Origin: a virus
Length of the DNA: 64,000 nt
IMG/VR virus record: IMGVR_UViG_3300032116_000016
Direction: 5' to 3' (one strand)
A program made the translations under genes and the position numbers. How positions within the stretch are numbered: position 1 is the first letter of the stretch; the number at the start of each line of letters is the position of its first letter. The notes under the pieces were generated by a model. The model was not told the DNA's origin and searched no databases. It was given only the letters and a program-made list of their open reading frames with translations. Below are positions 2,880 to 47,166 of the stretch, piece by piece.

Positions 2880-2899
2880 TCGTAGTTACAATTTAATAA

Positions 2900-2945
2900 T
2901 AACTCTCGCAGGTGTTCATTCATCTGCGAGAGTTATATTTTTATA
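2900..2945 (+). terminator. Rho-independent terminator after tail tube
   Basis: 15-bp stem TAACTCTCGCAGGTG / CATCTGCGAGAGTTA (one G-U pair), 6-nt loop, followed by T-rich TATTTTTAT. Confidence 0.75.
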
Positions 2946-2976
2946 AGTCAAAATCACTCTCTTAATATGGTTTTTG

Positions 2977-2985
2977 ATATTTATA
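2977..2985 (+). promoter_or_regulatory. ATATTTATA motif (candidate late promoter)
   Basis: Lies just after the terminator and about 28 nt before ATG 3013. Confidence 0.6.
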
Positions 2986-3012
2986 CAAGAGTGCTTTTTT
3001 CGTGAGAATACT

Positions 3013-19600: not shown

Positions 19601-21307
19601 ATTACTACTACACCGTCTATTACTAGAACGCCAAGCGTAACAACTACGCCATCTATTACTACCACGCCTAGTATTACCAGAACACCAAGTATTACTCCTA
19701 GTATTACGCCGTCTATTACCACTACACCATCTATTACGACTACACCAAGTATTACCAGAACACCAAGTATTACGACAACGCCTTCTATTACTACAACACC
19801 ATCTATTACTACTACGCCAAGTATTACTAGAACGCCGTCTATTACGACTACACCATCTATTACTACTACGCCAAGTATTACTCCAAGTATTACCATCACG
19901 CCAAGTATTACCAAAACACCGTCTATTACCACTACGCCAAGCATTACTACAACGCCTTCTATTACAAGAACGCCAAGTATCACGCCAAGTATTACAACAA
20001 CGCCGTCTATTACTAGAACGCCAAGTATTACTACAACACCGTCTATTACTAGAACGCCGTCTATTACTAGAACGCCGAGTATTACCACTACGCCGTCTAT
20101 TACCAGAACACCGTCTATTACGCCTTCTAACACACCGGGAACAATGGTTATTGAACTTGCTAGTGGGTCAGCAAGTAGTAATACAACAACGGGAGCATCT
20201 ACAGGATCACATACATGGACCGTACAATCAAACGCTACAGCGTTAGTAGCACGTGTGGCTTCACAGGCAGAATTTCCAACATACGGTAAACCGACAGCAA
20301 TGTGGTGGTCTGGAAGTTGGGGAAGAACCGCATTAACAATGCAACAAGAATCAGCTAATATTGGTGATGGTATTGCTCTAACAATCTGGACATTATTCAG
20401 TCCAAATTCTGGCACAGGTGCATTAGAAATTGCGTATAACGGTACTATGTATTATCGTATGTATCATACTAATTATAAAAATGCTGTAGCCGTGTGGGAT
20501 AAAGATTTTACCAGTACAAACGGCACAAGTATGTTCGTTCCATTATACACAGATGCGGATAATAGTTCTTTAATGATTGGAATTGGTGTTGGAGTAAATG
20601 CATTCGGTTCACCAAGTACGTTGTCAGCGGCAGGAGGATCTACCTCGGAATGGACAACAACCAGTACGGCATTGACATATGATTTTGAAGTAAATATGTC
20701 CAAAAAATATGCATCAAGTACAGCTGGACAGTTAGATTGGACCCACAGCCAGACGTTAAATATTAAAGCAGCGGCAATTCAATTAGAAAATATTATACCA
20801 TCAGTAACACCGACTATTACACCGACACCGACGATAACTCCATCTAAAACAAGAACGCCATCGCCAGTGACGCCTTCGCCAACGCCGTCACCGACGCCAT
20901 CGCCAGTAACGCCGTCACCTGTAACGCCTTCACCTGTTACCCCATCACCAGTAACACCATCACCAGTAACGCCTTCGCCAACACCATCACCAACACCTTC
21001 GCCAGTAACACCATCACCGGTAACGCCTTCACCAACGCCGTCACCAACACCATCGCCAGTAACGCCTTCGCCAACACCATCACCAACACCTGCACCAGTA
21101 ACGCCTTCGCCAACACCAGCACCAACACCTGCACCAGTAACACCTGCACCAACACCCGCACCAGTAACACCATCACCGACATCTTCGTGTCAAGACGGCA
21201 CGTATGCGTGTATTGGAGTAAATCTATACTATTGTAATCTCGGAACTTATGAACTAGCATGTGTGGATTATGTAGACTGTGGTGGAAGTCAATTCCTTTG
21301 TACGTAA
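16658..21307 (+). CDS. Mucin-like virion protein 2 (short N-terminal anchor, about 1,140-aa TPSITx array, globular domain, TPSP repeats, 6-Cys tail)
   Basis: 1549-aa ORF beginning MTPVLGARGGASVRSFG. Globular domain at about 20140-20795. Confidence 0.85.
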   Translation: MTPVLGARGGASVRSFGLFGAITPTPTPSITRTPSVTPSITPSRSVTPSITPSITITPSITPSITRTPSITPSITVTTTPSVTNTPSITITPSITATTTPSITVTPSITITPSITTTPSITRTPSITTTPSITITPSITRTPSITTTPSVTKTPSITTTPSITTTPSITTTPSITPSITVTPSITKTPSITPSITITPSITKTPSITTTPSVTRTPSITVTPSITPSITTTPSVTTTPSVTPSITTTPSITTTPSITTTPSITTTPSVTTTPSVTPSITTTPSITRTPSITTTPSITTTPSVTKTPSITTTPSITTTPSITTTPSITTTPSITPSITPSITTTPSITTTPSITTTPSITTTPSVTTTPSITVTPSITKTPSITPSITSSPGISVTPSITVTPSITTTPSITKTPSVTVTPSITTTPSITTTPSITPSITTTPSITTTPSVTNTPSITTTPSVTTTPSITTTPSVTTTPSITPSITTTPSITTTPSITKTPSITTTPSITTTPSITKTPSITTTPSITVTPSITTTPSVTTTPSITTTPSITPSITTTPSITTTPSITRTPSITTTPSITKTPSITITPSITRTPSVTVTPSITTTPSITPSITTTPSITTTPSITTTPSITTTPSITPSITTTPSITRTPSITTTPSITPSITITPSVTTTPSITTTPSVTITPSITPSITTTPSITRTPSITTTPSITVTPSITPSITTTPSITKTPSITTTPSITTTPSVTRTPSITTTPSITRTPSITTTPSITPSITITPSITTTPSVTPSITTTPSITTTPSITTTPSITTTPSITPSITTTPSITKTPSITRTPSITTTPSITTTPSITKTPSITTTPSITTTPSITTTPSITPSITKTPSITTTPSITTTPSITVTPSITPSITTTPSITKTPSITVTPSVTITPSITTTPSITRTPSITTTPSITTTPSITTTPSITPSITVTPSITTTPSITKTPSVTTTPSITTTPSITRTPSVTTTPSITTTPSITRTPSITPSITPSITTTPSITTTPSITRTPSITTTPSITTTPSITTTPSITRTPSITTTPSITTTPSITPSITITPSITKTPSITTTPSITTTPSITRTPSITPSITTTPSITRTPSITTTPSITRTPSITRTPSITTTPSITRTPSITPSNTPGTMVIELASGSASSNTTTGASTGSHTWTVQSNATALVARVASQAEFPTYGKPTAMWWSGSWGRTALTMQQESANIGDGIALTIWTLFSPNSGTGALEIAYNGTMYYRMYHTNYKNAVAVWDKDFTSTNGTSMFVPLYTDADNSSLMIGIGVGVNAFGSPSTLSAAGGSTSEWTTTSTALTYDFEVNMSKKYASSTAGQLDWTHSQTLNIKAAAIQLENIIPSVTPTITPTPTITPSKTRTPSPVTPSPTPSPTPSPVTPSPVTPSPVTPSPVTPSPVTPSPTPSPTPSPVTPSPVTPSPTPSPTPSPVTPSPTPSPTPAPVTPSPTPAPTPAPVTPAPTPAPVTPSPTSSCQDGTYACIGVNLYYCNLGTYELACVDYVDCGGSQFLCT
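16724..20137 (+). repeat. Coding tandem array (TPSITx)n, x often T/R/K/V/I
   Basis: Same unit as in 11020..16092, but with frequent Lys at x. Confidence 0.95.
20798..21181 (+). repeat. Coding Pro-rich array (VTPSP / TPSP / TPAP)n
   Basis: Visible in the translation: SPVTPSPTPSPTPSPVTPSP...PAPVTPAP. Confidence 0.9.
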
Positions 21308-21832: not shown

Positions 21833-21863
21833 CTTGTGTACAGGTTATATAAATGAGGGTTTT

Positions 21864-23183
21864 ATGACTACAAAAAAGAAAGTTGTTAAAAAGACTGTAA
21901 GAAATCAGAGTATAAAAAAGACTGCTGGACGAGTTAAAAAGAAAGTACCTACTATTTTCGTTCAAATTGCAGCATACCGTGATCCAGAATTATTACACAC
22001 TCTTCGCAGTTTATTACAAAACGCAGATCATCCAGAAAATTTGACTATTGCCATTGGTTGGCAGCATTCTCCCTATGAGAAGTGGGATAATTTAGATGAG
22101 TTCAAAGATGACACAAGATTTAAGATAATAGATATAGATTATCGTAAATCTAAAGGTGTTTGCTGGATGCGTGAAAAAATACAGAAATTGTATAATGGCG
22201 AAACTTATACACTACAACTAGATTCACATCATAGATTTACCGAACATTGGGATACGCAAGTAATAGAAATGTTAGAAGGATTGCGTAGTAAAGGACACAC
22301 AAAACCACTGCTGAGTTCATACTTACCAGATTTTAATCCAGTAACAGGACCTGAAGGTGAATTACCTGCTCCGTGGATTATGGAATTTGACAGATTTGGT
22401 CCAGAAGGGCCAGTACACTTCTTACCACATACAATAGACGATTGGAGAGAACTGACATCACCAGTTCCATCAAGATTCATGTCTGGTCATTTTATATTTG
22501 CTGACGGAATATTTGTTAAAGAAGTTCCGTATGACCCAAATTATTATTTTCACGGTGAAGAAATTGATTTATCTGTTCGTTCTTATATGGCGGGGTACGA
22601 TCTATTCGCACCACACAGAACTATTGCTTGGCACGAATACTATAGAGAAGGAAAGAGTAAACATTGGGAGGACCATACAAATTGGGCATCAGAAGATAGA
22701 ATCTCACACGCATATCATCGCAAAATGTACGGTATTGAATCGAAGAACAGAAAATTAAAAGATAATGTACGAACACTTCAGGAATATGAAATGTATGCTG
22801 GATTGGAGTTTTCTACAAAACGTGCTCATACGATGACCATACAAAAAATACGCCCTCCAGTTTCTTTAGATGTAGAATCCCATACACAAGGATTGGTTCC
22901 TTATCATAAAGTATGTATTGATGTGTATAAAGGATCATTACCAGAGAAGGATTATAATTTCTGGGTAGTTGCGTTTACAAATAAAGATGGAATAGAATTT
23001 CATAGACATGATGCTGATGAAAATGAAATAAATATGGCTATGAGTGTACCTTATGAAGCAGATAAGTTTGTGCATATATGGAGAGCATTCTATTCTGATC
23101 AACCAGCTGATGGGTGGATCGTGTGGCCTCATAGTAAGAGTAATGGGTGGTGTGAAAGATTAACTGGTAAATTTGGACGATAA
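21864..23183 (+). CDS. GT60 (Gnt1/Skp1-type polypeptide alpha-GlcNAc transferase-like) glycosyltransferase 1
   Basis: IFVQIAAYRDPEL, KGVCW, LQLDSHHRF, EVPYDPNYYFHGEEI.LSVRSY.AGYDLFAP and WHEY motifs. Start moved to ATG 21864 (GAGGG RBS). Confidence 0.8.
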   Translation: MTTKKKVVKKTVRNQSIKKTAGRVKKKVPTIFVQIAAYRDPELLHTLRSLLQNADHPENLTIAIGWQHSPYEKWDNLDEFKDDTRFKIIDIDYRKSKGVCWMREKIQKLYNGETYTLQLDSHHRFTEHWDTQVIEMLEGLRSKGHTKPLLSSYLPDFNPVTGPEGELPAPWIMEFDRFGPEGPVHFLPHTIDDWRELTSPVPSRFMSGHFIFADGIFVKEVPYDPNYYFHGEEIDLSVRSYMAGYDLFAPHRTIAWHEYYREGKSKHWEDHTNWASEDRISHAYHRKMYGIESKNRKLKDNVRTLQEYEMYAGLEFSTKRAHTMTIQKIRPPVSLDVESHTQGLVPYHKVCIDVYKGSLPEKDYNFWVVAFTNKDGIEFHRHDADENEINMAMSVPYEADKFVHIWRAFYSDQPADGWIVWPHSKSNGWCERLTGKFGR

Positions 23184-23184
23184 T

Positions 23185-24426
23185 ATGAGAAAAAATAAAA
23201 ATATTTTCGTTCAAATTGCAGCATACCGTGATCCAGAATTACTACCCACTATTCGTGATTGTATATCCAATGCGAAGAACCCGGAAAATCTTCGATTCTG
23301 TATTGCGTGGCAGCATTCTAACGAAGATGTCTGGGACAATTTAGATGAGTTTAAAAACGATTCACGATTTATAATTCTAGATATTCCACATCTACAGACA
23401 AAAGGAACGTGTTGGGCACGGTATCAAATCCAACAACATTGGAACGGAGAAGCATATACCCTACAATTAGATTCACATCATCGTTTTGCTAAAAATTGGG
23501 ATAGTATGCTAATTAAGATGGTCAAAGATTTACAAAAAGCAGGATATAAAAAACCATTATTGACTGCATATATGTCAAGTTATGAACCACATAACGATCC
23601 CACGGGACGAGCACCAGACCCGTGGTTCTTAACATTTGACAGATTCACTCCAGCTGGAGCAGTATTTTTTATACCCGCTGTTATTCCTGATTGGAAAAAT
23701 CGTAAATTACCATATCCAAGTAGATTTTATTCCGCTCATTTTGGATTCACACTTGGACAATTTTGTAAAGAAGTTCCTCACGATCCGAACTACTTGTTTC
23801 ACGGTGAGGAAATTTCTATTGCCGCACGAGCGTATACGTGGGGATATGATTTGTTTGCGGCACATAAACCTGTAGTGTGGCACGAATATTCACGAAATCA
23901 CCGCCCTCGTAAATCGTGGGACGACATATCAGATTGGACTAATTGGGATAATCAATCGTTGGCACGTAACAGAAGATTGTTAAACGTGGATAACGAGAAT
24001 GACCCTAATGAAGATTTTGGAGAATTTGGATTTGGTACACAACGTACACTACAGCAGTACGAAGAATATGCGGGAATACAATTTTCTACAAGAAGTATAC
24101 AAAAACATACGTTAGAACATCGTGAACCACCCAACCCGCCAAATCAACCATTCTTTAGAATTTTTAAACATTGTATTGATTTACCATATCAATATGTACC
24201 GTATAATGACTATGATTTTTGGGCGGTAGCATTTGAAGATGAATTTGGTAACGAGATATATAGACACGATGCTACAGAAGATGATATCATACAAATGAAG
24301 AATGATCCTGACGGATATTGTAAATTGTGGAGACAGTTTCACGCAACGGCAAAACCCGCCAGATGGATTGTTTGGCCACATTCTAAATCACACGGATGGT
24401 GTGATCGATTGGTTGGAGATATCTAA
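23185..24426 (+). CDS. GT60-like glycosyltransferase 2 (tandem paralog)
   Basis: IFVQIAAYRDPEL, KGTCWAR, LQLDSHHRF and FHGEEISIAARAYTWGYDLF motifs. Confidence 0.8.
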   Translation: MRKNKNIFVQIAAYRDPELLPTIRDCISNAKNPENLRFCIAWQHSNEDVWDNLDEFKNDSRFIILDIPHLQTKGTCWARYQIQQHWNGEAYTLQLDSHHRFAKNWDSMLIKMVKDLQKAGYKKPLLTAYMSSYEPHNDPTGRAPDPWFLTFDRFTPAGAVFFIPAVIPDWKNRKLPYPSRFYSAHFGFTLGQFCKEVPHDPNYLFHGEEISIAARAYTWGYDLFAAHKPVVWHEYSRNHRPRKSWDDISDWTNWDNQSLARNRRLLNVDNENDPNEDFGEFGFGTQRTLQQYEEYAGIQFSTRSIQKHTLEHREPPNPPNQPFFRIFKHCIDLPYQYVPYNDYDFWAVAFEDEFGNEIYRHDATEDDIIQMKNDPDGYCKLWRQFHATAKPARWIVWPHSKSHGWCDRLVGDI

Positions 24427-25388: not shown

Positions 25389-26306
25389 ATGAGAATTTTA
25401 GTAACAGGTGGAACTGGGTTGGTTGGAGAAAACTTGAAACAATCTCTTCCTGACGCATATTATGTTTCTTCAAAGGATTACGATTTAACTAGTTACGAAG
25501 ATACTGCGGCGTTGTTTTATTACTATCGACCAACGCACGTTATCCATTTAGCTTCTAAAGTAGGTGGCATAACGTATAATATGAAATACCCAGTAGAGTT
25601 TTTTGAAGATAATGTGTTGATGAACGCAAATGTACTAAACTGTGCTCATAAATTTAAAGTGCAAAACTTAATTGGAATGTTGTCCACTTGTATATTCCCA
25701 GATGATGTGACGTATCCTCTAACGCCTGATAAAATTCATAAGGGTGAACCACATCATAGCAACTTTGGATATGCTTATGCAAAACGCATGTTAGAAGTTC
25801 AAATACGAACATATAATAAACAATACGGAACAGATTGGACCACGATTATCCCAACAAATATTTATGGCAAATATGATCAATTTAATCTTGAAAAATCTCA
25901 TGTAATTCCTGCGTTAATTCATAAGATGTATTTGAATAAAATAAATAATCAACCATTGATGAATATGATGGGTACTGGATTGGCAGAACGGGAATTTATA
26001 TACGCTGAAGATTTAGGGAAAATATTAGCGTGGGCTATAGAAAATTACACAACACCAACACCATTAATAGTTTCATCAGAAACATCATATAGTATAAAAT
26101 CGGTAGCAGAGCTAATTTCTAATGCTATAGGTTATGAGGGACAATTACTATTTGACGGAGATGTGTCAAAAGACGGACAATACAGAAAGCCAAGCGATTC
26201 CAATGTGGTTAGAACACTTTGTCCAATAGAATATACTCCTCTAGATGTTGGTATAAAAAATACCGTAGAGTGGTTTGTAGAAAATTACACTAACTGTAGG
26301 AAGTAA
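25389..26306 (+). CDS. fcl: GDP-L-fucose synthase (epimerase/reductase)
   Basis: VTGGTGLVG, HLASKVGGI..NMKYP.EFFEDN, LSTCIFP, YAYAKR and PTNIYG..DQF.LEKSHVIPALIHK motifs. Confidence 0.9.
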   Translation: MRILVTGGTGLVGENLKQSLPDAYYVSSKDYDLTSYEDTAALFYYYRPTHVIHLASKVGGITYNMKYPVEFFEDNVLMNANVLNCAHKFKVQNLIGMLSTCIFPDDVTYPLTPDKIHKGEPHHSNFGYAYAKRMLEVQIRTYNKQYGTDWTTIIPTNIYGKYDQFNLEKSHVIPALIHKMYLNKINNQPLMNMMGTGLAEREFIYAEDLGKILAWAIENYTTPTPLIVSSETSYSIKSVAELISNAIGYEGQLLFDGDVSKDGQYRKPSDSNVVRTLCPIEYTPLDVGIKNTVEWFVENYTNCRK

Positions 26307-29215: not shown

Positions 29216-30097
29216 GTGAAAATTAAATTTCTTCCAAACTGGTGTTCTTCTGAACAAGGTACAAAACGATTATTTGACCAATTTTATATAGGACAAGATT
29301 TAACAAATGTAGAATTTGTTCACGGTGATGAATTTGACGTTATTTTTTATTGCGGATATGAAACGCAAGTCGTACCGTCTGGAATAAAAAAATATATTTT
29401 TAATATGGAACCGTGTTGGTCGGGAAACGTACAAAGAAACAATTCGGGTATTGATGCTACAATCTTCGCTCAAGATAAAAACATATTTGATGATTCGACT
29501 AGAGTAGTTGAGTGTCCAACCTATATGTTCTACGGAGCTGGTGGCGAAAATTGGACTGTAGAAGATACCAAAATTGATTACGAAAAAACAAAAAATATCA
29601 GTTGTATATTGTCGGATAAAAGAAACATTTACAATATATCTTCATGTCTATACGATAAACGAGATGATGTAGCTCAATACTTGATGCGTTCGAGTGTATC
29701 GGTAGATGTATTCAGAGATTGTGATTCTCCAAATTGCGTTGGTGGACTCCCAAGAAAAATTGAAGGATTAAAACCATATCGATTTAGTATTGGTATAGAA
29801 AACAGTAGAGAACAAAACTACATTTCAGAAAAATTTTATGATGCAATTTTAACAAACACCATCCCAATATACTACGGTGCAAAAAATATCAAAGAGGTTT
29901 TTCCTGAAAATGGGTATTTTGTAATAGATGATTTAGAAGATTTAGATGGCATTGCCAACCTACTAAAACATATAAACGAAAACGCAGAAGAACTTTATCG
30001 ACAAATGTTACCAGAAGCACTAAAAATTAAACAGAGATTTTTTAATGAATTTAATCTCATGACAAAAATTATAGAAGTAGCGGAGAGTGGTATATGA
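29216..30097 (+). CDS. GT10-like (alpha-1,3-fucosyltransferase) glycosyltransferase
   Basis: YRFSIGIENSREQNYISEKFYDAILTNTIPIYYGA matches the GT10 alpha-1,3-FucT motif. GTG start. Confidence 0.75.
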   Translation: MKIKFLPNWCSSEQGTKRLFDQFYIGQDLTNVEFVHGDEFDVIFYCGYETQVVPSGIKKYIFNMEPCWSGNVQRNNSGIDATIFAQDKNIFDDSTRVVECPTYMFYGAGGENWTVEDTKIDYEKTKNISCILSDKRNIYNISSCLYDKRDDVAQYLMRSSVSVDVFRDCDSPNCVGGLPRKIEGLKPYRFSIGIENSREQNYISEKFYDAILTNTIPIYYGAKNIKEVFPENGYFVIDDLEDLDGIANLLKHINENAEELYRQMLPEALKIKQRFFNEFNLMTKIIEVAESGI

Positions 30098-35959: not shown

Positions 35960-37996
35960 GTGGCTGTATTTTTTCCATTCGGTATTCCTTCTACGGGTTC
36001 CTTCGCACAAACAGCTAGTTCTGCTTACGCATTAGTAAACAATCCATCTGTTGTAGCAGCACGTGCGTTGGTTGGTGTTATAGGACCAAAAGGTACTCCT
36101 GGAATTCAAGCTACAAGTTGTCCGCCTGGTTATTATAATGCGTTAACTACGGTCACGGATGCCTATGACACATACCCATCAGTACCGCCGCATTCTGGTA
36201 GAGAAAATTATTTTTTATGTTATCCAATTCCCTCTCCATCCATAACCCCAACAAAAACACCGACAGCTACCCCGACGATGACAGTAACACCGTCAGTAAC
36301 AACTACGCCGTCGGTTACCCCAAGTGTAACTGTAACACCTTCTATAACAACTACACCATCAGTTACCAGAACGCCTTCTATCACTAGAACACCGAGTATC
36401 ACAACTACGCCGTCTATTACGACCACACCTTCTGTTACTACTACGCCTAGTATTACTAGAACACCATCTATTACACCGTCTGTGACAGTAACACCTTCTA
36501 TCACAACAACACCGTCAATAACGGTTACTCCAACTATAACATCTACACCTTCAATTACACCGTCAATAACTGTTACACCAAGTTTAACACGAACACCATC
36601 TATTACCACAACACCATCTATTACCACAACACCGTCTATAACTCCAACTAGAACAGTAACTCCATCAATAACACAAACAACAAATCAATCTGTAACACCA
36701 ACGCCTACTCTTACACCTTCTATAACAACTACACCATCAATAACAGCAACTCCATCAATAACAGCAACTCCATCAATAACGCCGTCGATAACAACTACTA
36801 GAACTGTTACCCCAACGGTAACGCCCTCAATAACAACAACCCCATCGGTAACTACGACACCAACTAATACACCAACTCCATCGGTAACACCTTCTGCTAC
36901 CACAATTAATTATGTATTTTGTGAGTGTACTACAGTTCCAAGCTGTAATAATTATCCAGATCCTACTGGTGGTGGATGTACAGCAGTTGCTGAAGCACTT
37001 ACTCTCGGAACGTGTTGGCCGTGTACACAAGGAGTAGTAACGCCATCAGTAACACCGAGTGTCACTGCTACCCCTTCAATTACTAAAACACCAAGTACTA
37101 CAGTAACTCCATCAATAACAACTACGCCAAGTATTACGCCAAGTATTACGACAACGCCGTCTATTACCACTACACCTTCTATTACTAGAACGCCAAGTAT
37201 TACCGCTACGCCTTCTATTACTAGAACACCAAGTATTACTCCAAGTATTACCACTACGCCGTCTATTACTAGAACACCAAGTATTACTCCAAGTATTACC
37301 ACTACGCCGTCTATTACTAGAACACCAAGTATTACTAGAACGCCTTCTATTACACCATCTATTACGCCAAGTATTACTACTACTCCAAGTATTACGCCGT
37401 CTGCAACAAAAACGCCTGCGCCCGTAACGCCTTCACCAGTAACACCTTCGCCGGTGACGCCTTCACCGGTGACGCCTTCGCCGGTGACGCCTTCACCAGT
37501 GACGCCTTCACCAGTAACACCTTCGCCAGTGACGCCTTCACCAGTAACACCTTCGCCAGTGACGCCTTCACCAGTAACACCTTCGCCAGTGACGCCTTCA
37601 CCAGTAACACCTTCGCCAGTGACGCCTTCACCAGTAACACCTTCGCCAGTGACGCCTTCGCCGGAAACACCTTCGCCAGTGACGCCTTCGCCTGAAATAC
37701 AATGTCCTACAATACCATGTGTTGATGCTCAAGATTGTTCACCGTGTGCATATTGCTGTGCTGGGCAATGTCAAAATACACCATGCCCACCCGTAGCACC
37801 AACGCCTTCACCGGTAACACCTTCACCGGTAACACCTTCACCAGAAACACCTTCACCAACACCATCACCAGCAACATGTACTTTTGGAGCTACTCAATGT
37901 GTGGGCCAAGATTTGTACACTTGTAATGGTACAGAATATGTATTATCGTGTACAAATTATATTGATTGCGGCGGATCGAACAGTTCGTGTGAGTAA
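35960..37996 (+). CDS. Mucin/extensin-like protein 3 (TPS and VTPSP arrays, three Cys-rich modules)
   Basis: GTG start with AGGAG RBS. 678 aa, with the same 6-Cys C-terminal module as 16658..21307. Confidence 0.85.
   Translation: MAVFFPFGIPSTGSFAQTASSAYALVNNPSVVAARALVGVIGPKGTPGIQATSCPPGYYNALTTVTDAYDTYPSVPPHSGRENYFLCYPIPSPSITPTKTPTATPTMTVTPSVTTTPSVTPSVTVTPSITTTPSVTRTPSITRTPSITTTPSITTTPSVTTTPSITRTPSITPSVTVTPSITTTPSITVTPTITSTPSITPSITVTPSLTRTPSITTTPSITTTPSITPTRTVTPSITQTTNQSVTPTPTLTPSITTTPSITATPSITATPSITPSITTTRTVTPTVTPSITTTPSVTTTPTNTPTPSVTPSATTINYVFCECTTVPSCNNYPDPTGGGCTAVAEALTLGTCWPCTQGVVTPSVTPSVTATPSITKTPSTTVTPSITTTPSITPSITTTPSITTTPSITRTPSITATPSITRTPSITPSITTTPSITRTPSITPSITTTPSITRTPSITRTPSITPSITPSITTTPSITPSATKTPAPVTPSPVTPSPVTPSPVTPSPVTPSPVTPSPVTPSPVTPSPVTPSPVTPSPVTPSPVTPSPVTPSPVTPSPVTPSPVTPSPETPSPVTPSPEIQCPTIPCVDAQDCSPCAYCCAGQCQNTPCPPVAPTPSPVTPSPVTPSPETPSPTPSPATCTFGATQCVGQDLYTCNGTEYVLSCTNYIDCGGSNSSCE
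36230..37870 (+). repeat. Coding TPS / VTPSP arrays including exact DNA tandem repeats
   Basis: Exact 48-nt unit x2 plus a partial copy at 37215-37336. Exact 30-nt unit GACGCCTTCACCAGTAACACCTTCGCCAGT x5 at 37501-37650. Confidence 0.95.
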
Positions 37997-38090
37997 AATC
38001 AATTGGTGAGGTAAAAACGTAAATATGTATTATAGTACAGTACGAATATACTAAATTGTAATACTGAAAAATAATTAAGAGGAAATGGTT

Positions 38091-39062
38091 ATGAAAACAA
38101 TATTGGTTACGGGAGCCGGTGGGTTTATTGCCGGACATATAGTAAAGAAATTAGCAGAAATATATACAGTACGAGCAATTGATAAAAAGCCGTTTGATAA
38201 ATGGTATCAAATTACCGAGTCAGCAGAAAACATCGTCGGAGACTTAACGGATTACGATGTTGCTCTAAACGCCACGCAAGGTATTGATGAAGTCTATCAT
38301 TTAGCGTGTGATATGGGTGGAATGGGATTTATCGAACACAATAAGACATTGTGTATGTTATCCATTATTCCAGACACCAATACATTAAAAGCAGCACACC
38401 TAAACGGAGCAAAGAAGTTTCTCTTCGCATCGACCGCTTGTGTCTATCCTGTGTATAAACAAAACACGACAGAACCAGAACCTTTAATTGAAGGTACAGA
38501 ATACCCAGCCGATCCCGAAGATGGGTATGGTTGGGAAAAGCTGTTTATGGAACGCATGTGTCGTCATTTCACCGAAGATTTTGGAATTGAAACCCGTATT
38601 GTCCGATACCACAATGTCTACGGTCCAGTAGGTACGTGGCAAGGTGGACGAGAAAAAGCACCGGCCGCGCTCTGTAGAAAAGTCGCACATGCTTTACACA
38701 CTAACTCTGATACGATTGAAGTGTGGGGTGATGGTGAGCAAACACGGTCGTTTTTGTATATTGATGATGCAGTCGAAGGAACAATTCGTGTAATGGATAG
38801 TCCACATCAATCGGCATTTAATATTGGATCAGACCGAATGGTGTCCGTTAATGAATTAATTACGATTATTGAAAATGCAGCTGGTGTCAAACTCCAACGT
38901 AAACATATTGAAGGACCGTTGGGAGTACGTGGAAGAAACTCACATAATGACAAAGTAAAGGCATTGTTAAATTGGGAACCTGCTATTACATTAGAAGAAG
39001 GAATGACTCGTACATTTAACTGGATACGGGAACAATATGGATTATATCATAGTACCAACTAG
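38091..39062 (+). CDS. GDP-mannose 3',5'-epimerase-like NAD-dependent epimerase
   Basis: LACDMGGMGFI, STACVYP, YGWEKL, HNVYGP.GTWQGGREKAPAALCRK, WGDGEQTRSF and GVRGRNS match the GME signature. ATG 38091 fits the AGAGG RBS better than 38085. Confidence 0.85.
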   Translation: MKTILVTGAGGFIAGHIVKKLAEIYTVRAIDKKPFDKWYQITESAENIVGDLTDYDVALNATQGIDEVYHLACDMGGMGFIEHNKTLCMLSIIPDTNTLKAAHLNGAKKFLFASTACVYPVYKQNTTEPEPLIEGTEYPADPEDGYGWEKLFMERMCRHFTEDFGIETRIVRYHNVYGPVGTWQGGREKAPAALCRKVAHALHTNSDTIEVWGDGEQTRSFLYIDDAVEGTIRVMDSPHQSAFNIGSDRMVSVNELITIIENAAGVKLQRKHIEGPLGVRGRNSHNDKVKALLNWEPAITLEEGMTRTFNWIREQYGLYHSTN

Positions 39063-41808
39063 TAATAGTGAGTATCAATCGTGGCAGTGTCGTTTATTAA
39101 ACTGGTCACGGAAGAAAGTAAAGCAATCAGGTAAACTTGTGTTATTACGATGTGCAGATCCGATGGGTAGAAATAGACCGTTGGATGAATACACAGACAC
39201 GGATGTAGTAGTAATAGATTTACCAGATTATGCTACAGAATGGGAAAATCTAGAATCAGAATCAAAACGTGGTGAAAAATATTGGTGGGGAGCTATACCA
39301 AATAAATTCATGTCGATAAAATGGTTATGCGATAACTCTTCTTTTAAAGACGAAGATAATTTATTATTTCTAGACCCAGATATGATATTTTTACATCCAG
39401 TAGAATTTGTTCCTAAATATAACGAAATTATAGCACAAAGATTTATTCACTACGCACCGTTACAGAATTGGAAAATTGAAAATGATAGAGACGGGTTTGG
39501 TGTGATGTATCCATTTTGTATTAAGTTTGGTACATTAAAAAAAATAATAGACGATTATATTACCAGTTCAGAGCAAATTAAACGTGAAACGAAACGATGG
39601 GAATCTGAAATGTGGGGATTGGATTACGCAGTTAAAAAGAACAATTTAAAAATTCAATACGTAGAGGACTTTGGATTCTGTACGGCATGGAAAGAAAATG
39701 ACAGTAATGAAGTCAGTCTTATCGCACATTTCCCGAATGAAATATTTGATGCGAATAATAATTCTTTATTTTTCAAACAAGATTACACACACAATCAGAA
39801 TATGCAAATAGACGTAAATAGAGCAAGAAACAAATTAGATGAACTTTTGTTATCTAATATTGCACAAGAAAGAACGGATTATCTGTACCATTTAAAATGG
39901 AATTTTTCTAATATATTTAACAATTACACTGGTAAAACCGGATATATTATTTTAAAACCGTGGCCGGGTGGATTTAACAACATACGAATGTCATTAGAAC
40001 TGGCGGTTTGTATAGCATATTTAACGAATAAGACATTAGTACTACCTCCAAAGTATAATATGTATTTGCTAAAAGATACGTTTGGGCTAGAAGATTTTTT
40101 TGATATGTCTGATTTAGGAATAAAAACAATGTCTTTTTTTGATTTCTGTAGACTGAAAAATATTACTCCTACGTTCGAAGCAGTTGCAGAAATTAGTAAA
40201 ACCATAACAGAACCAGAATTTCACGTTTTAAATTTTACAGAATCACTACCAGACGAATCATTTAAACATGGACGTTCTGTAACTGATATGATTGAACTAC
40301 TTGGTCACAATGAGTGTTTATTTTTTGATGGTAAATTGTTAGGAAATTTTTATCAAACCATATATACGACATTTGACGTAGAACTTAAAAAATTAATAGC
40401 ACGGCACGTTCATTACACTCCTAAATTAATGGAATTGGGTTGGCGGGCAATAGAAGTGTTGGGAGACAGAAAATACTATGCAATCCACATAAGAAGAAAT
40501 GATTTTCAGTATAAGCATTTGTTCATTACAGCGGAGCAAATCTATGATAATATCAAAGATATAATACCAGATGGTTCCACATTGTATATTGCAACAGACC
40601 ATACCGATAAATCATTTTTTGACAAACTTGCCCAACACTATCAGTTACACTATTACGAAGATATTGCACATTTAGCAAAACTAGAAAATGTGCACTATAA
40701 TTTTATTCCGATAATAGAACAACTCATATGTACAAGATCTATAAAGTTTATAGGTAACGATTATTCCACTCTTTCCTCGTATATATACAGACTTCGAGGA
40801 TATATGAAAGATATAGAAGATAAAAACTTTTATATCAATACTAGTACGTTTAATCAAGATGAGCAATGTGATTCTACTGAAACAAAAAGATTCATAGGTA
40901 ATTGGGCACGAGAATTTAAAGACGCCTGGGATTTTAAACCTAAAAAAATATTTGTTTCTGTAGCTAGCTATTGCGACCGCCAGTTATTAACTACATTAAG
41001 AAATTTATATGAAACGGCACAAGACTCATCACGAATTATGGTAGGTGTCCATCTTCAAGATAACGAAGAATATCATAAAGAATTACTTAATGAAAATTTT
41101 CCAAACATGAAAATATTATTTACTCCAGATGAAGATTCTCTGGGAGTTGTTTGGGCGCGTGAAAGAATAAAGCAAGAATTAATAACTGATGAGGATTTCT
41201 TTTTGCAGATTGACGCACACAGTAGATTTAAACAAAATTGGGATGGTATACTAATAAATCAATATAGAAGTATGCCAAACAAAAAAGTGGTATTCTCTAC
41301 ATATCCAAATGGATTCGAACTTACCGATACGGAAAAAAACTTTTTATCTATAAAAACTAATGCCCCATTAGTTATTAGTGGACATATGGATGTTGAAAAT
41401 GTTAATCCAATAGATAACAGATTAGTTACAAAAAATTTAGTAGCAATGGATAAGTACGAAATATTCGACAACAAATGGATAGGTGCAGGATTTATATTTG
41501 CACCAATCGAATGGACTGGAGATATACAAGTACCTATGCAAATAAAATCTAAAGGTGAAGAAGAAGCACAAACGTTCTTATCTTATTTAAAAGGATGGGA
41601 TATAAAATTACCCGCTGAGGCGACAGTATGGCATAATTATAATATACATGACTTGGACGGCACCGTATACAGAAAAACAAATCATAATGAAATAACAGAC
41701 AAGTCTGTTGAAATTATAAATGATATACTTTTTAATACTTCCAATTCATATTCTCGTTCATTAGAAGAATTGGAGGATTACTTGTCAATTAAATTTAGAC
41801 GGATCTAA
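39037..41808 (+). CDS. Trifunctional glycosyltransferase: SGT1/HPAT-like (GT96/GT95) + O-fucosyltransferase-like + GT60-like
   Basis: Domain 1: YQSWQCRLL..S, NKFMSIKWL, LDPDMIF, WESEMWG. Domain 2: GGFNNIR, AIHIRRNDF, LYIATD, IEQLIC...FIGNDYSTLS. Domain 3: IFVSVASYCD, LGVVWAR, LQIDAHSRF, GEEE, WHNY. Confidence 0.75.
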   Translation: MDYIIVPTSNSEYQSWQCRLLNWSRKKVKQSGKLVLLRCADPMGRNRPLDEYTDTDVVVIDLPDYATEWENLESESKRGEKYWWGAIPNKFMSIKWLCDNSSFKDEDNLLFLDPDMIFLHPVEFVPKYNEIIAQRFIHYAPLQNWKIENDRDGFGVMYPFCIKFGTLKKIIDDYITSSEQIKRETKRWESEMWGLDYAVKKNNLKIQYVEDFGFCTAWKENDSNEVSLIAHFPNEIFDANNNSLFFKQDYTHNQNMQIDVNRARNKLDELLLSNIAQERTDYLYHLKWNFSNIFNNYTGKTGYIILKPWPGGFNNIRMSLELAVCIAYLTNKTLVLPPKYNMYLLKDTFGLEDFFDMSDLGIKTMSFFDFCRLKNITPTFEAVAEISKTITEPEFHVLNFTESLPDESFKHGRSVTDMIELLGHNECLFFDGKLLGNFYQTIYTTFDVELKKLIARHVHYTPKLMELGWRAIEVLGDRKYYAIHIRRNDFQYKHLFITAEQIYDNIKDIIPDGSTLYIATDHTDKSFFDKLAQHYQLHYYEDIAHLAKLENVHYNFIPIIEQLICTRSIKFIGNDYSTLSSYIYRLRGYMKDIEDKNFYINTSTFNQDEQCDSTETKRFIGNWAREFKDAWDFKPKKIFVSVASYCDRQLLTTLRNLYETAQDSSRIMVGVHLQDNEEYHKELLNENFPNMKILFTPDEDSLGVVWARERIKQELITDEDFFLQIDAHSRFKQNWDGILINQYRSMPNKKVVFSTYPNGFELTDTEKNFLSIKTNAPLVISGHMDVENVNPIDNRLVTKNLVAMDKYEIFDNKWIGAGFIFAPIEWTGDIQVPMQIKSKGEEEAQTFLSYLKGWDIKLPAEATVWHNYNIHDLDGTVYRKTNHNEITDKSVEIINDILFNTSNSYSRSLEELEDYLSIKFRRI

Positions 41809-41810
41809 AA

Positions 41811-45090: not shown

Positions 45091-46639
45091 TATAGGAATG
45101 TTTGGTTCTCATAATGCAACAATAGCTATATCAAAAGATGACAAACTTTTAGAAGTAGTGGAAGTAGAAAGATTTACTTCAATAAAAAATTGCGCATTAT
45201 GGTTTTACTATAACATAAGAGAGCCATATAATATAGCAGTGATTCACGAAATAAAAAACTACTTTAATCAAAAATATGGAGTAACGGAATATGAAAGCGT
45301 AATATATAATTCCGTGCACCAAGAATACTATAAAATATTTCCCGCTAAAAAATACACATGGTTACCACACCACACAGCTCACGCATACTCTGGATTATAC
45401 CAATCCCCATATAGTAATGCGTTAATAGTATCAGCTGATGGTGGTTCAGATGAAGGATTTTTCAATGTGTTTATAGGTGATAAGCGCGCGGGTATTACAA
45501 AAATATATTCTGGTAAAAGAGATTTAGCTGTTCCATATGGATTGGTTGCACATTATATTGAAGATATACGAAAGGAAGAACCGTTTTGGGGAAACTTGGT
45601 GTACGCCGGAAAAATTATGGGGTTTGCAAACTACGGAAACGCCACGGAAGAATTCGTCAATAAATTACATACTATATATAATAGCGGGGATGATGGGAAA
45701 ATACCGGAAACGGTGACTACAATAAGGAAGGTTCTTGACATTCCAGAGGAATTTAGATTCACTGGCCAAGACGCTAAAGATTTAGCTGCTTCAAATCAAT
45801 TTGTCTTTGAGCAACTTTTTGAAGAAGAGATAACGCCATTTTTAAAGGAATACCCTTCATTACCCTTAATTTTAGTTGGTGGGTGTGGGCTTAATATATT
45901 AAATAATACCAAACTTGCTAGAACTAGAAACGTATTTGTTCCACCTAATCCAAATGATTGTGGGTTGGCGGTTGGATTATTAGCATCTACTATCAAACCA
46001 ACAGAACCAATTGATTGTACATATGCTGGGCCCGTAGTATGGGATAGACATGAATTAATAAGAATTGCACACGAACGATCGGCACAAGTACTTGACATCG
46101 CTAAATTAGCAGACTATATTATATCTGGTAAAATTGTAGGTGTGGTACGAGATAGATGTGAACATGGTCCAAGAGCACTAGGAAATAGAAGTATATTGTG
46201 TAATCCTGCTATTACTGGAATAAAAGATATATTGAATGCTAAAGTAAAAGGTAGAGAATATTATCGTCCCTTCGCTCCCGTGGTCCGTCTAGAAGATGTT
46301 AACAAATATTTTGAATGGAATACTGAAAGCCGTTGGATGAGTTTTTGTCCAAGAGTAAAAGATGAATATAAAAATAAACTAGAAGCAATAGTGCACGTGG
46401 ATGGTACAGCGAGAGTACAAACTGTAACTAAAAAACAAAATGAATTTTTATATAATTTATTAACAGAAATGCATAATAAAACTGGAATAGGTGTATTATT
46501 AAATACTTCGTTCAATGTGGCAGGAAAACCAATTTTGAATACGTATAAAGAAGCACTCACAGTTCTAGATAGTAAAGAGATGGACGCCGTTATATTGGAA
46601 GATTATATTATACAAAAAAACAGAGGATCACAGTTATGA
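45083..46639 (+). CDS. Carbamoyltransferase (NodU/CmcH/TobZ family) 2
   Basis: GSHNAT, HHTAHA, DGG, GKIMG..NYG, GGCGLN, EHGPRALGNRSIL, RPFAP, HVDGTARVQTV and NTSFN motifs. Start moved to ATG 45083. Confidence 0.9.
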   Translation: MFNIGMFGSHNATIAISKDDKLLEVVEVERFTSIKNCALWFYYNIREPYNIAVIHEIKNYFNQKYGVTEYESVIYNSVHQEYYKIFPAKKYTWLPHHTAHAYSGLYQSPYSNALIVSADGGSDEGFFNVFIGDKRAGITKIYSGKRDLAVPYGLVAHYIEDIRKEEPFWGNLVYAGKIMGFANYGNATEEFVNKLHTIYNSGDDGKIPETVTTIRKVLDIPEEFRFTGQDAKDLAASNQFVFEQLFEEEITPFLKEYPSLPLILVGGCGLNILNNTKLARTRNVFVPPNPNDCGLAVGLLASTIKPTEPIDCTYAGPVVWDRHELIRIAHERSAQVLDIAKLADYIISGKIVGVVRDRCEHGPRALGNRSILCNPAITGIKDILNAKVKGREYYRPFAPVVRLEDVNKYFEWNTESRWMSFCPRVKDEYKNKLEAIVHVDGTARVQTVTKKQNEFLYNLLTEMHNKTGIGVLLNTSFNVAGKPILNTYKEALTVLDSKEMDAVILEDYIIQKNRGSQL

Positions 46640-47166
46640 ACAACCAATCAGAATTTTTTGCTCGACATGGGTATGCATACATTAAAGACGTACTGACACA
46701 CCAGCAGTGCGACGACTTTGCTCAGTTGATGTATGACATGAAAGCTACAGATCGTTTAGTTTATGAAGGTGGTGACCAAAAGTTTTATGATAATTCGTAT
46801 GGTGGAAACCATCCAGAGTTTGAGGCCGCATTGCGATCATTAACAGACAGATTGCAAGACGAGTTGGGAGTTAAAATGACTCCCGCTAATTCGTTTGGAC
46901 GCATTTATTATAATGGTGGAACTTTACACAAACACGTTGATCGTCAAGGTCTTGATTACACTATGTCTATTACGCTATTTAATAGTTTAGATAAGGAATG
47001 GCCATTGTGGTGTATTGATAAGACAAATAATCAAGTTCCTTTGAATATTGGTCGAGGTGATGGTGGTATGATGTTAGGAACAACAATGACACATTGGCGT
47101 GATGATTTAATTTGCGAACCACACCAGCATGTTGTTCAACTATTCATGCATTGGAGTTTTGCATGA
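46636..47166 (+). CDS. 2OG-Fe(II) oxygenase (phage type; possible prolyl or glycan hydroxylase)
   Basis: GRIYYNGGTLHKHVDR (HxD), distal HWRD His, and the WPL...GDG pattern. Confidence 0.8.
   Translation: MNNQSEFFARHGYAYIKDVLTHQQCDDFAQLMYDMKATDRLVYEGGDQKFYDNSYGGNHPEFEAALRSLTDRLQDELGVKMTPANSFGRIYYNGGTLHKHVDRQGLDYTMSITLFNSLDKEWPLWCIDKTNNQVPLNIGRGDGGMMLGTTMTHWRDDLICEPHQHVVQLFMHWSFA

What the first reader, a model, noticed from the sequence alone, without database searches (positions are those of the whole stretch)
39037..41808. Three-domain glycosyltransferase fusion: plant-type SGT1/HPAT + O-fucosyltransferase + GT60
The N-terminal ~290 aa follow the order of motifs in plant/green-algal peptidyl-serine alpha-galactosyltransferase (GT96) and Hyp-arabinosyltransferase (GT95): Y..WQ...L..S.....Q.G, then NK.....WL, a DxD (LDPDM) and W.SEM.G. 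The middle (about 39940-40930) carries O-FucT motifs (GGFNNIR, HIRRND, YIATD, EQ.IC...F.G...ST.S). The C-terminus (about 40940-41808) is a GT60. I know of no described protein combining three protein-O-glycan-type enzymes, and an extensin-type GT in a phage would be notable. It could work as an assembly-line enzyme on repetitive substrates.
Basis: partly seen in the sequence, partly recalled or inferred. Interest (0 to 1): 0.85.

Follow-up and report, generated by a model that had tools for sequence, protein, structure and literature searches.

The report
Phage three-in-one protein glycosyltransferase
A tailed phage encodes one 923-residue enzyme joining three sugar-adding domains of families known mainly from eukaryotic protein glycosylation, and its gene neighbours suggest it sugar-coats the phage's own giant proline/threonine/serine-repeat tail fibres, a plant-like pathway I found described in no paper.

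Summary
ORF 39037-41808 (+) is an intact 923-aa protein with three glycosyltransferase (GT) domains:
- an HPAT/SGT1-family GT-A domain (Pfam PF23452, above cut-off);
- an O-FucT domain (PF10250, with POFUT2-like GDP-sugar motifs);
- a GT60 domain (PF11397, with a DxH motif).

The fusion is not an artefact. More than 100 metagenomic protein clusters and about 40 IMG/VR loci carry it at 42-69% identity, some with a fourth or fifth domain. No isolated phage has it, and I found no paper describing it.

In 23 of 26 dereplicated relatives, a collagen-type prolyl 4-hydroxylase double oxygenase lies directly upstream. The window's subclade instead has:
- a GDP-mannose 3,5-epimerase homologue directly upstream;
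- a 176-aa PHD-like oxygenase 4.8 kb downstream;
- a Pro/Thr/Ser-repeat protein two genes upstream.

Two more kilo-residue TPSIT-repeat proteins sit in the tail-fibre module.

Best reading (about 0.6): a soluble, cytoplasmic multi-domain O-glycosyltransferase decorates the phage's own repeat fibres. Proline hydroxylation probably comes first. Donors, acceptor residues and domain order are inferred, not shown.

The scan found the same cassette before on other DNA (e1-5660566, e1-5660559). I rate it a new variant of a known kind, of high interest.

The parts
39037..41808 (+). Three-domain glycosyltransferase, 923 aa, soluble (no membrane segment)
   Evidence: ORF and translation; Pfam; conserved full length in more than 100 clusters; maximum Kyte-Doolittle 19-residue score 1.34
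39037..39921 (+). Domain 1: HPAT/SGT1-family (GT95/GT96-like) GT-A domain with invariant D113-P-D115, N89, M192 and H231
   Evidence: Pfam HPAT 31.1 bits; AF2 pLDDT 89; Atlas TM 0.70-0.80 to HPAT-family models; nearest solved folds are retaining GT-A enzymes: Skp1 alpha-GalT Gat1 Z 16.7, glycogenin, LgtC, GT6
39943..40806 (+). Domain 2: O-FucT-family (PF10250, POFUT2-like) domain with GFNN.R, HIRRND, ATD and IC..F.G..STLS motifs
   Evidence: Pfam 99 bits; family profile hits POFUT2 4ap6 at E 8.5e-7 with the HxRRxD, ATD and STxS blocks aligned; invariant columns
40945..41808 (+). Domain 3: GT60 (GlcNAc, PF11397) GT-A domain with invariant D726-x-H728
   Evidence: Pfam 109 bits; PHROG 24687 glycosyltransferase; invariants
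38085..39062 (+). GDP-mannose 3,5-epimerase homologue, overlapping the GT start by 26 nt; candidate supplier of GDP-L-galactose/gulose
   Evidence: E 4.7e-91 to Arabidopsis GME 2c59, next family 5e-29; 87-99% identical and syntenic in L010 and L011
41811..42734 (+). Stand-alone GT60 paralogue; it is the fourth domain of the fusion in close relatives
   Evidence: Pfam GlcNAc 169 bits; 54% identity to aa 942-1246 of the 1257-aa relative P0006; stop TAA, then ATG 2 nt later in another frame
46636..47166 (+). 176-aa PHD-type 2OG-Fe(II) oxygenase candidate (H100-x-D102, H153-x-R155); probable protein prolyl hydroxylase
   Evidence: hhalign probability 89% to the C-terminal half of the relatives' P4H double oxygenase; conserved motifs; AF2 pLDDT 90.5; Foldseek best matches are P. 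putida P4H, PHD2 and Dictyostelium PhyA, TMq 0.71-0.76
35960..37996 (+). 678-aa Pro/Thr/Ser-repeat protein (TPSIT and PSPVT arrays, Cys-rich tip); candidate acceptor, two genes upstream
   Evidence: Translation; syntenic next to the GT in L009 and L010; composition T 27%, P 20%, S 14%
11020..16092 (+). 1690-aa TPSIT-repeat fibre-like protein; candidate acceptor
   Evidence: Translation; preceded by a tail-fibre-assembly gene at 10662-11006; 201 TPS units
16658..21307 (+). 1549-aa TPSIT-repeat fibre-like protein with a Cys-rich tip; candidate acceptor
   Evidence: Translation; 218 TPS units
21834..24426 (+). Two further GT60 paralogues (21834-23183 and 23173-24426) heading the first glycosylation cluster
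   Evidence: Pfam GlcNAc 222 and 242 bits; hits to domain 3 in the phage's own record
25389..26306 (+). GDP-L-fucose synthase-like SDR
   Evidence: NCBIfam GDPFucSynFcl 209 bits, below the equivalog cut-off; Pfam Epimerase
29216..30097 (+). GT10-type fucosyltransferase
   Evidence: Pfam Glyco_transf_10 59.5 bits
42747..46639 (+). Two NodU-like carbamoyltransferases (42747-44306 and 45002-46639) with a 260-aa ORF of unknown function between them (44308-45090, no Pfam hit); likely sugar O-carbamoylation
   Evidence: Pfam Carbam_trans_N/C; NCBIfam NodU; no family for 44308-45090; a carbamoyltransferase is fused to the GT in relative P0065

Best explanation
The gene encodes a soluble, cytoplasmic, multi-active-site protein O-glycosyltransferase made during infection. 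It decorates the phage's own Pro/Thr/Ser-repeat tail-fibre proteins (11020-16092, 16658-21307, 35960-37996). Proposed order (inferred): a phage 2OG-Fe(II) oxygenase hydroxylates prolines in the repeats. Here that is the PHD-like 176-aa ORF at 46636-47166; in most relatives it is a collagen-type P4H double oxygenase directly upstream. The retaining HPAT/SGT1-like domain and the GT60 domain then start sugars on Hyp and/or Ser/Thr. The O-FucT-like domain adds a GDP-L-sugar: L-fucose, or L-galactose supplied by the adjacent GME homologue. Neighbouring GT60, GT10 and GT4-like enzymes, methyltransferases and carbamoyltransferases then extend and cap the glycans. Joining three active sites in one chain would keep successive steps on the same repeat array. 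Shown: domain identities, conserved catalytic motifs, conservation of the fusion, linkage to hydroxylases and co-occurrence with Pro-rich repeat proteins. Inferred: acceptor proteins and residues, donors, order of steps and virion location of the glycoproteins.
For: All three domains match their families, and their signature motifs are invariant across 46 relatives of 42-69% identity. The N-domain model matches HPAT-family models at TM 0.70-0.80 and retaining GT-A enzymes in the PDB. In 23 of 26 dereplicated loci, a two-domain oxygenase lies directly upstream and co-oriented. Its N-terminal half matches solved prolyl 4-hydroxylases at E 3e-27 to 2e-17. A peptidyl-proline hydroxylase as obligate neighbour points to a protein acceptor. 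The window's subclade keeps a homologue of that enzyme's C-terminal half as a 176-aa ORF with HxD...HxR and a PHD/PhyA-like fold. Pro-rich repeat proteins lie within 10 kb of the GT in about 12 of 40 relatives (PSPVT, APTPSPT, APTPAP, PPTSPP, VTPPPV arrays). A complete 172-kb relative has four such ORFs elsewhere in its genome. In the window, one repeat protein is syntenic two genes upstream, and the two giant ones sit among tail tube and tail-fibre-assembly genes. Neither the GT nor the repeat proteins have a membrane segment, which fits cytoplasmic modification before assembly. A GME homologue overlaps the GT start. From the literature: GT95 HPAT and the related GT96 SGT1 glycosylate Hyp and Ser of extensins (PMC8012813). 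GT60 Gnt1 acts on Hyp of Skp1 after a PHD-type hydroxylase (PMC3515798).
Against: There is no biochemical or proteomic evidence. No PF13640-type P4H is present in the 98-kb record of this phage (estimated 48% complete) or in the records of its closest relatives. The substrate of the 176-aa oxygenase is unknown. HPAT-like and GT60 genes also occur in a bacterial cluster with sulfotransferases that may build a polysaccharide, so these families are not proof of a protein acceptor. Most relatives have no repeat protein within 10 kb. I have no control for how often such repeats occur in phages that lack the GT. PT-rich arrays are common linkers in fibres. GT95 versus GT96 affinity could not be resolved.
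Confidence: 0.6

Rival explanations
1. The enzyme and its island build or remodel a polysaccharide or lipopolysaccharide of the infected cell, for example to block superinfection. The repeat proteins would be unrelated fibre linkers.
For: Cyanophage sugar-enzyme islands are usually read this way (PMC9602691). A bacterial contig carries an HPAT-like gene among sulfotransferases, epimerases and a GT60. The island holds many generic glycan enzymes: GT10, GT4-like, HtrL, methyl- and carbamoyltransferases.
Against: A prolyl 4-hydroxylase homologue is the near-obligate upstream neighbour in relatives. No flippase, polymerase, undecaprenyl-phosphate priming transferase or membrane segment was seen in the island or the GT. 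All three families have characterised members that act on proteins. Repeat proteins are syntenic with the GT.
Confidence: 0.15
2. The enzyme does glycosylate the repeat fibres, but in this phage only on Ser/Thr (mucin-type). No hydroxyproline is involved. The N-domain would act like SGT1 (Ser alpha-galactosylation), and the 176-aa oxygenase would have another role.
For: The window's repeats are dominated by Thr and Ser (T 27-34%, S 14-17%, P 13-20%). The collagen-type P4H domain is missing from this subclade's known DNA. JGI labels some family members as peptidyl serine alpha-galactosyltransferase. GT60 enzymes of trypanosomes act on Thr (from memory).
Against: The subclade keeps a PHD-fold oxygenase with an intact HxD...H...R set in the same cluster. 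Proline is the one residue common to the repeat types across relatives. The phage record is only about half complete.
Confidence: 0.25
3. The targets are host proteins: the hydroxylase plus GT would rewire host physiology, much as the bacterial PHD acts on EF-Tu and the Skp1 pathway acts on a regulator. The virion would not be the target.
For: The nearest structural matches of the 176-aa ORF include P. putida P4H, solved with EF-Tu, and Dictyostelium PhyA. The N-domain's top structural match is a Skp1 glycan galactosyltransferase. The enzyme is cytoplasmic.
Against: The gene's recurrent proximity to giant Pro-rich repeat proteins and to the fibre module is left unexplained. An island of about 15 glycan enzymes is far more than a regulatory mark needs.
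Confidence: 0.07
4. The oxygenase plus GT pair hypermodifies phage DNA (base hydroxylation followed by glycosylation), like TET/JBP-associated glycosyltransferases.
For: There is a weak Pfam TAGT hit inside domain 3 (21.8 bits, below the 27.5 cut-off). Oxygenase-GT adjacency resembles TET/JBP-GT pairs.
Against: The same stretch scores 109 bits for GT60. The partner oxygenases match prolyl hydroxylases, not TET/JBP. HPAT and O-FucT domains have no known DNA role.
Confidence: 0.03

Closest known systems
Plant and green-algal hydroxyproline-rich glycoprotein pathway (P4H, then HPAT GT95 on Hyp and SGT1 GT96 on Ser of extensins)
   Same: An HPAT-family catalytic domain by profile and by predicted fold. 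A prolyl 4-hydroxylase homologue sits beside it in most relatives. The candidate acceptors are Pro/Ser/Thr/Ala repeat proteins. A plant-like GDP-mannose 3,5-epimerase is adjacent.
   Different: The phage protein is soluble with no type II membrane anchor, so modification would be cytoplasmic rather than Golgi. It is fused to two other GTs. The repeats are TPSIT, PSPVT or APTP rather than Ser-Hyp4. Donor and acceptor are untested, and no UDP-arabinose pathway was identified.
Skp1 prolyl-hydroxylation/glycosylation pathway of Dictyostelium and Toxoplasma (PhyA, Gnt1 GT60, bifunctional PgtA, AgtA/Gat1)
   Same: It is cytoplasmic. A PHD-type hydroxylase fold is present (6t8m among the best matches). 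It uses a GT60 enzyme and includes a fucose step. It uses a multi-domain GT. The N-domain's best solved match is Gat1. The pathway order is taken from PMC3515798.
   Different: The Skp1 pathway modifies one proline of one regulatory protein. Here the candidate acceptors are arrays of hundreds of repeats. The domain set differs (HPAT-like and PF10250, not GT2/GT74/GT77). No Skp1 is involved.
Animal POFUT2 (GT68) and POFUT1 (GT65)
   Same: PF10250 membership, with the GDP-fucose-binding blocks aligned to POFUT2 4ap6.
   Different: Only the C-terminal half aligns significantly. POFUTs act on folded Cys-knot modules (EGF, TSR) in the ER. PF10250 also holds enzymes with glycan acceptors (from memory), so this domain may extend a glycan rather than start one.
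Virion glycosylation in mycobacteriophages and glycosylation machineries of giant viruses (Mimivirus fibrils and collagen hydroxylase-GT; PBCV-1 P4H and capsid GT)
   Same: Virus-encoded GTs modify the virus's own structural proteins. Giant viruses also encode P4H and hydroxylase-GT pairs. PBCV-1 P4H 5c5t matches the relatives' oxygenase, and the PBCV-1 capsid GT and Mimivirus R699 appear among the fold matches. The biology of these systems is recalled from memory.
   Different: The GT families and architecture are different. This is a tailed phage of a prokaryote. It has kilo-residue mucin-like acceptors and a hydroxylase-coupled three- to five-domain GT.

Membership tests
HPAT family (Pfam PF23452; CAZy GT95/GT96) | Profile match above the curated cut-off | tested here: met
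   27.6 bits for the whole protein and 31.1 bits for the domain alone, against a 23.9 cut-off. 19 of 31 aligned relatives match, the best at 1.8e-40.
HPAT family (Pfam PF23452; CAZy GT95/GT96) | GT-A fold resembling HPAT-family members, with a DxD metal site | tested here: met
   AF2 pLDDT 89 and pTM 0.90. TM 0.70-0.80 to Chlorophyta and bacterial HPAT-family models. D113-P-D115 is invariant. No solved HPAT or SGT1 structure was found for comparison.
HPAT family (Pfam PF23452; CAZy GT95/GT96) | Type II membrane anchor and Golgi location, as in the plant enzymes | tested here: not met
   No hydrophobic segment (maximum KD19 1.34). The protein starts directly with the catalytic domain. Some stand-alone relatives do have N-terminal anchors.
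HPAT family (Pfam PF23452; CAZy GT95/GT96) | Assignment to GT95 (Hyp beta-L-arabinofuranosylation) or GT96 (Ser alpha-galactosylation) | tested here: inconclusive
   Two profile searches returned no named plant HPAT or SGT1 references, only a few JGI labels of 'peptidyl serine alpha-galactosyltransferase'. No tree could be rooted.
HPAT family (Pfam PF23452; CAZy GT95/GT96) | Transfer of arabinose to Hyp or galactose to Ser of a peptide | not testable with these tools
   This needs an enzyme assay.
GDP-fucose protein O-fucosyltransferase family (PF10250; GT65/GT68 and relatives) | Profile match and conserved GDP-sugar-binding motifs (HxRRxD, ATD, STxS) | tested here: met
   99 bits against a 31.5 cut-off, covering profile positions 1-326 of 326. 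The motifs align with POFUT2 4ap6 and are invariant in 46 relatives.
GDP-fucose protein O-fucosyltransferase family (PF10250; GT65/GT68 and relatives) | Acceptor is a folded EGF or TSR module | not tested
   No EGF or TSR search was run. The repeat proteins end in Cys-rich tips that were not classified.
GT60 (Pfam GlcNAc PF11397) | Profile match and a DxH metal-binding motif | tested here: met
   109 bits against a cut-off of 21. All 46 relatives match. D726-x-H728 is invariant.
GT60 (Pfam GlcNAc PF11397) | UDP-GlcNAc:polypeptide (Hyp or Thr) alpha-GlcNAc transfer | not testable with these tools
   This needs an enzyme assay.
Hydroxylase-coupled protein glycosylation (P4H/PHD partner) | A prolyl hydroxylase encoded with the GT | tested here: inconclusive
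   In relatives this is met: 23 of 26 loci have a P4H homologue directly upstream. In the window there is only a PHD-fold 176-aa oxygenase 4.8 kb downstream. No PF13640 domain is present in the 98-kb record, which is 48% complete.

The most novel reading that the evidence does not exclude
Tailed phages of aquatic bacteria encode a complete, cytoplasmic, hydroxyproline-rich-glycoprotein pathway. It comprises a prolyl hydroxylase, an HPAT-like Hyp/Ser transferase, an O-FucT-like L-fucose/L-galactose transferase and GT60 enzymes, joined in three- to five-domain enzymes. The pathway would build an extensin- or mucin-like glycan coat on kilo-residue tail fibres. This would be the first hydroxyproline O-glycosylation outside eukaryotes and their giant viruses, and a possible evolutionary link to GT95/GT96.
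Probability: 0.4. Interest if true: 0.9.

Novelty: new variant of a known kind. Interest (0 to 1): 0.8.

Why it matters
If the reading is right, some phages carry mucin- or extensin-like glycoprotein fibres made by their own eukaryote-like machinery. That would change how we think about phage adsorption, stickiness to mucus, particles or cell envelopes, and resistance to proteases and grazers in water.

It would also give glycobiology three things:
- soluble, bacterial-cytoplasm-compatible relatives of HPAT/SGT1, POFUT and GT60, none of which has a solved HPAT or SGT1 structure to compare with;
- a natural multi-domain scaffold for dense O-glycosylation of repeat polypeptides;
- a testable case for how GT95/GT96, so far treated as plant-specific, relate to prokaryotic and viral enzymes.

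The hydroxylase-GT linkage, seen in 23 of 26 relatives, makes the acceptor question directly testable by co-expression.

Tried and rejected
- **PDB, whole protein.** A sequence search with the whole protein found nothing. Only the family profile reached POFUT2.
- **PDB, N-domain.** The N-domain profile found no solved relative. The best hit was a chance-level DxD stretch of chondroitin synthase at E 0.04.
- **Isolated phages.** DNA and protein searches found only separate O-FucT or GT60 genes (S-SCSM1, XacN1, Xoo-sp13), never the fusion.
- **P4H in this phage.** A PF13640 search and a search with a relative's P4H protein found nothing in the phage's own 98-kb record or in the records of L010 and L011. 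The record is half complete, so this is not evidence of absence.
- **Pfam on the 176-aa ORF.** Pfam gave no family. Its oxygenase nature came only from hhalign, the alignment and the fold.
- **Plant references.** Two profile searches meant to fetch named plant HPAT and SGT1 sequences for a tree returned only unnamed metagenomic proteins, so I built no GT95/GT96 phylogeny.
- **Assembly artefact.** Rejected because of the many independent relatives.
- **DNA modification.** Rejected (see rivals).
- **Structure jobs.** The two structure jobs went to the N-domain and the 176-aa ORF, so the whole three-domain arrangement was not modelled.

Full report
**The object.** The window is part of a 98.5-kb IMG/VR viral contig, estimated 48% complete. 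All long ORFs lie on the + strand. A tail sheath (16-2301), a tail tube (2391-2879), tail-fibre-assembly genes (2974-3369, 10662-11006) and a tape-measure protein (52365-56291) mark it as a contractile-tailed phage. ORF 39037-41808 is open and encodes 923 residues.

**Checking the observation.** Pfam finds three families, all above their curated cut-offs:
- HPAT, PF23452, aa 4-223: 27.6 bits in the whole protein and 31.1 bits (E 2.1e-7) for the domain alone.
- O-FucT, PF10250, aa 303-590, covering the full profile: 99 bits.
- GlcNAc/GT60, PF11397: 109 bits.

Most of their residues are invariant or nearly so in an alignment of 46 full-length relatives sharing 42-69% identity. These include D113-P-D115, W188, M192, G312-F-N-N-x-R317, H484-x-R486..D489, T520-D521, E561..I564-C565, S577-T-L-S-S581 and D726-x-H728. 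The family profile reaches human POFUT2 in the PDB (E 8.5e-7), and the HxRRxD, ATD and IC..F.G.S.ST.S blocks are aligned.

**The weakest domain.** A full HMMER scan of 1.84 billion representative proteins with the N-terminal 295 residues found only 69 clusters. Some are fused forms; others are stand-alone proteins of about 250-340 aa, a few with N-terminal membrane anchors. In an alignment of these, 19 of 31 members hit Pfam HPAT, the best at 1.8e-40, so the phage domain is bridged to the family. An AlphaFold model built on that alignment is confident (pLDDT 89, pTM 0.90).

- Against the ESM Atlas, the model matches a viral three-domain cluster (TM 0.88; 79 members, Uroviricota). It then matches HPAT-family models from Chlorophyta and bacteria at TM 0.70-0.80.
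- Among solved structures, the nearest are retaining GT-A enzymes. By Foldseek these are GT6 transferases at TM about 0.52. By exhaustive alignment they are the Skp1 alpha-galactosyltransferase Gat1 (Z 16.7), glycogenin, LgtC and UGGT.
- No solved HPAT or SGT1 structure turned up.

GT95 and GT96 are related families (PMC8012813). I could not fetch named plant references to tell which is closer.

**Is the fusion real?** A search of the 5.8-billion-protein collection returned 468 relatives. Of the best 120, about 108 cover at least 93% of the query. They fall into length classes of 53 three-domain, 42 four-domain and 13 five-domain forms. The extra domains are a second GT60/GT2, a PLOD-type GT, a carbamoyltransferase or a GT1-like domain.

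The window's next gene, 41811-42734, is a GT60 paralogue that aligns at 54% identity with the fourth domain of the closest relative. Here it is separated from the fusion by a stop codon and a frame change. IMG/VR holds about 40 loci with the full fusion. No isolated phage in GenBank has it. Full-text searches found no paper on it.

**Context in relatives.**
- In 23 of 26 dereplicated loci with enough upstream DNA, a roughly 415-aa gene ends at the GT start and is co-oriented with it.
- Its N-terminal half matches solved collagen-type prolyl 4-hydroxylases: Bacillus anthracis at E 3e-27, and Chlamydomonas and chlorovirus PBCV-1 at E 2e-17.
- Its C-terminal half is a second oxygenase-like domain.
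- Pro-rich repeat proteins lie within 10 kb of the GT in about a dozen loci. Their arrays include APTTAPTPSPT, PSPVT, APTPAP, PPTSPPTNPP and VTPPPV.
- In a complete 172-kb relative, four such ORFs (TAPPTTAPTVAP arrays, up to 1626 aa) lie elsewhere in the genome.

**Context in the window.** The three exceptions to the P4H rule are the window and its closest relatives L009 and L010, and in L011 the little upstream DNA available also encodes the epimerase rather than a P4H. Their shared synteny is: repeat protein, epimerase, fusion GT, (GT60), carbamoyltransferase(s), a small ORF, a DUF6065 protein, helicase.

- The epimerase (38085-39062) is a GDP-mannose 3,5-epimerase homologue. It scores E 4.7e-91 to Arabidopsis GME, and the next family scores 5e-29.
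- The small ORF (46636-47166, 176 aa) has no Pfam family. It aligns with the C-terminal half of the relatives' double oxygenase (hhalign probability 89%) and keeps R-x-Y, H100-x-D102, H153-x-R155 and H172.
- Its model (pLDDT 90.5) best matches PHD-type prolyl hydroxylases: P. putida P4H, human PHD2 and Dictyostelium PhyA, at TMq 0.71-0.76.
- No PF13640 domain is present in the known half of this phage.

**The wider island (21.8-47 kb).** It also holds:
- two more GT60 genes, a GT10 fucosyltransferase, a GT4-like gene and an HtrL-like gene;
- a GDP-fucose-synthase-like SDR;
- methyltransferases and two NodU-like carbamoyltransferases.

Three ORFs are Pro/Thr/Ser arrays of 1690, 1549 and 678 aa. 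Together they carry about 495 TPS units and have no membrane segments. The two giant ones sit in the fibre module.

**Mechanism.** The GT has no signal peptide or membrane segment, so it should act in the infected cell's cytoplasm. A peptidyl-proline hydroxylase as the usual neighbour, three families with characterised protein-directed members, and the recurring Pro-rich repeat proteins together point to O-glycosylation of the phage's own repeat fibres, with prolyl hydroxylation probably first.

- The retaining HPAT-like domain and the GT60 domain are the likely initiators, on Hyp and/or Ser/Thr.
- The O-FucT-like domain probably adds L-fucose or L-galactose, given the adjacent GME. It might instead act on the Cys-rich tips of the fibres.

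All of this is inference; nothing here shows donors, acceptors or order of steps. The main rival is polysaccharide or LPS remodelling. It is weakened by the hydroxylase linkage and by the lack of any membrane-linked glycan machinery in the island, although a bacterial HPAT-like gene in a sulfotransferase cluster shows these families are not proof of a protein acceptor. A Ser/Thr-only variant, host-protein targets and DNA modification are weighed in the rivals.

**Comparison and novelty.** The closest analogues are two.
- The plant HRGP pathway: P4H, then HPAT and SGT1 (PMC8012813).
- The cytoplasmic Skp1 pathway: PhyA, Gnt1 (GT60), the bifunctional PgtA, then AgtA (PMC3515798).

The phage enzyme shares families and logic with both. 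It differs in being soluble, fused, viral and apparently aimed at arrays of hundreds of repeats. It is a member of the three Pfam families, but it is not shown to be a GT95 or GT96 enzyme by activity. The scan had already met the same cassette on other DNA (e1-5660566, a 172-kb phage; e1-5660559), with the same reading. I reached mine before seeing those notes. I rate it a new variant of a known kind, interest 0.8.

Noticed in passing
window 38085-39062: The SDR gene overlapping the GT start is a close homologue of plant GDP-mannose 3,5-epimerase (E 4.7e-91 to Arabidopsis GME; the next family scores 5e-29). This implies that GDP-L-galactose/gulose is supplied by a phage.
   Followed up: partly
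window 46636-47166: A 176-aa ORF with no Pfam family folds like PHD-type prolyl hydroxylases and equals the C-terminal half of the P4H double oxygenase of relatives. Its nearest Atlas clusters are phage proteins auto-named 'ferrochelatase', probably a propagated misnomer.
   Followed up: yes
window 41806-41813: The fusion GT and the next GT60 gene are split by TAA plus a frame change. The closest relatives have one continuous four-domain ORF, so this is a gene fission or fusion event within the family.
   Followed up: partly
window 47805-48875: A 356-aa protein with a strong DUF6065 match (217 bits) is conserved in synteny with the island in L009-L011. Its function is unknown.
   Followed up: no
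window 35960-37996 and 16658-21307 (C-terminal ends): The repeat proteins end in similar Cys-rich tips of about 40 aa after PSPVT arrays. These could be folded modules that an O-FucT-like enzyme might recognise. They were not classified.
   Followed up: no
G004 (L091-L099) 1-4413 and 167039-171916: In the complete 172-kb relative, a TAPPTTAPTVAP-repeat ORF runs off both ends of the record. If the genome is circularly permuted, this suggests a single repeat protein of more than 3000 aa.
   Followed up: no
L007 1-8800 and 20255-22477: A relative carrying the cassette also encodes 7-deazaguanine pathway genes (QueC, PTPS, GTP cyclohydrolase I, a radical SAM enzyme) and its own GroES/GroEL pair.
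   Followed up: no
L102 8001-8996; L101 8001-8885: Stand-alone HPAT-like genes occur in two other settings. One is a giant-virus-like contig, where the protein has a membrane anchor and sits beside ATG8, topoisomerase IB and DnaJ genes. The other is a 245-kb bacterial contig, among sulfotransferases, epimerases and a GT60. The family is therefore much wider than plants.
   Followed up: partly
Phage S-SCSM1 MK867354.2 102777-103862 (hit H16): In this isolated cyanophage, a stand-alone O-FucT gene (26% identity to domain 2) lies beside a gene annotated as 2OG-Fe(II) oxygenase or 'ferrochelatase'. This echoes the oxygenase-GT linkage.
   Followed up: no
window 21834-47166: The glycosylation island and a helicase (49106-50989) sit between the sheath/tube/fibre genes and the tape-measure gene (52365-56291), splitting the tail module.
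   Followed up: no
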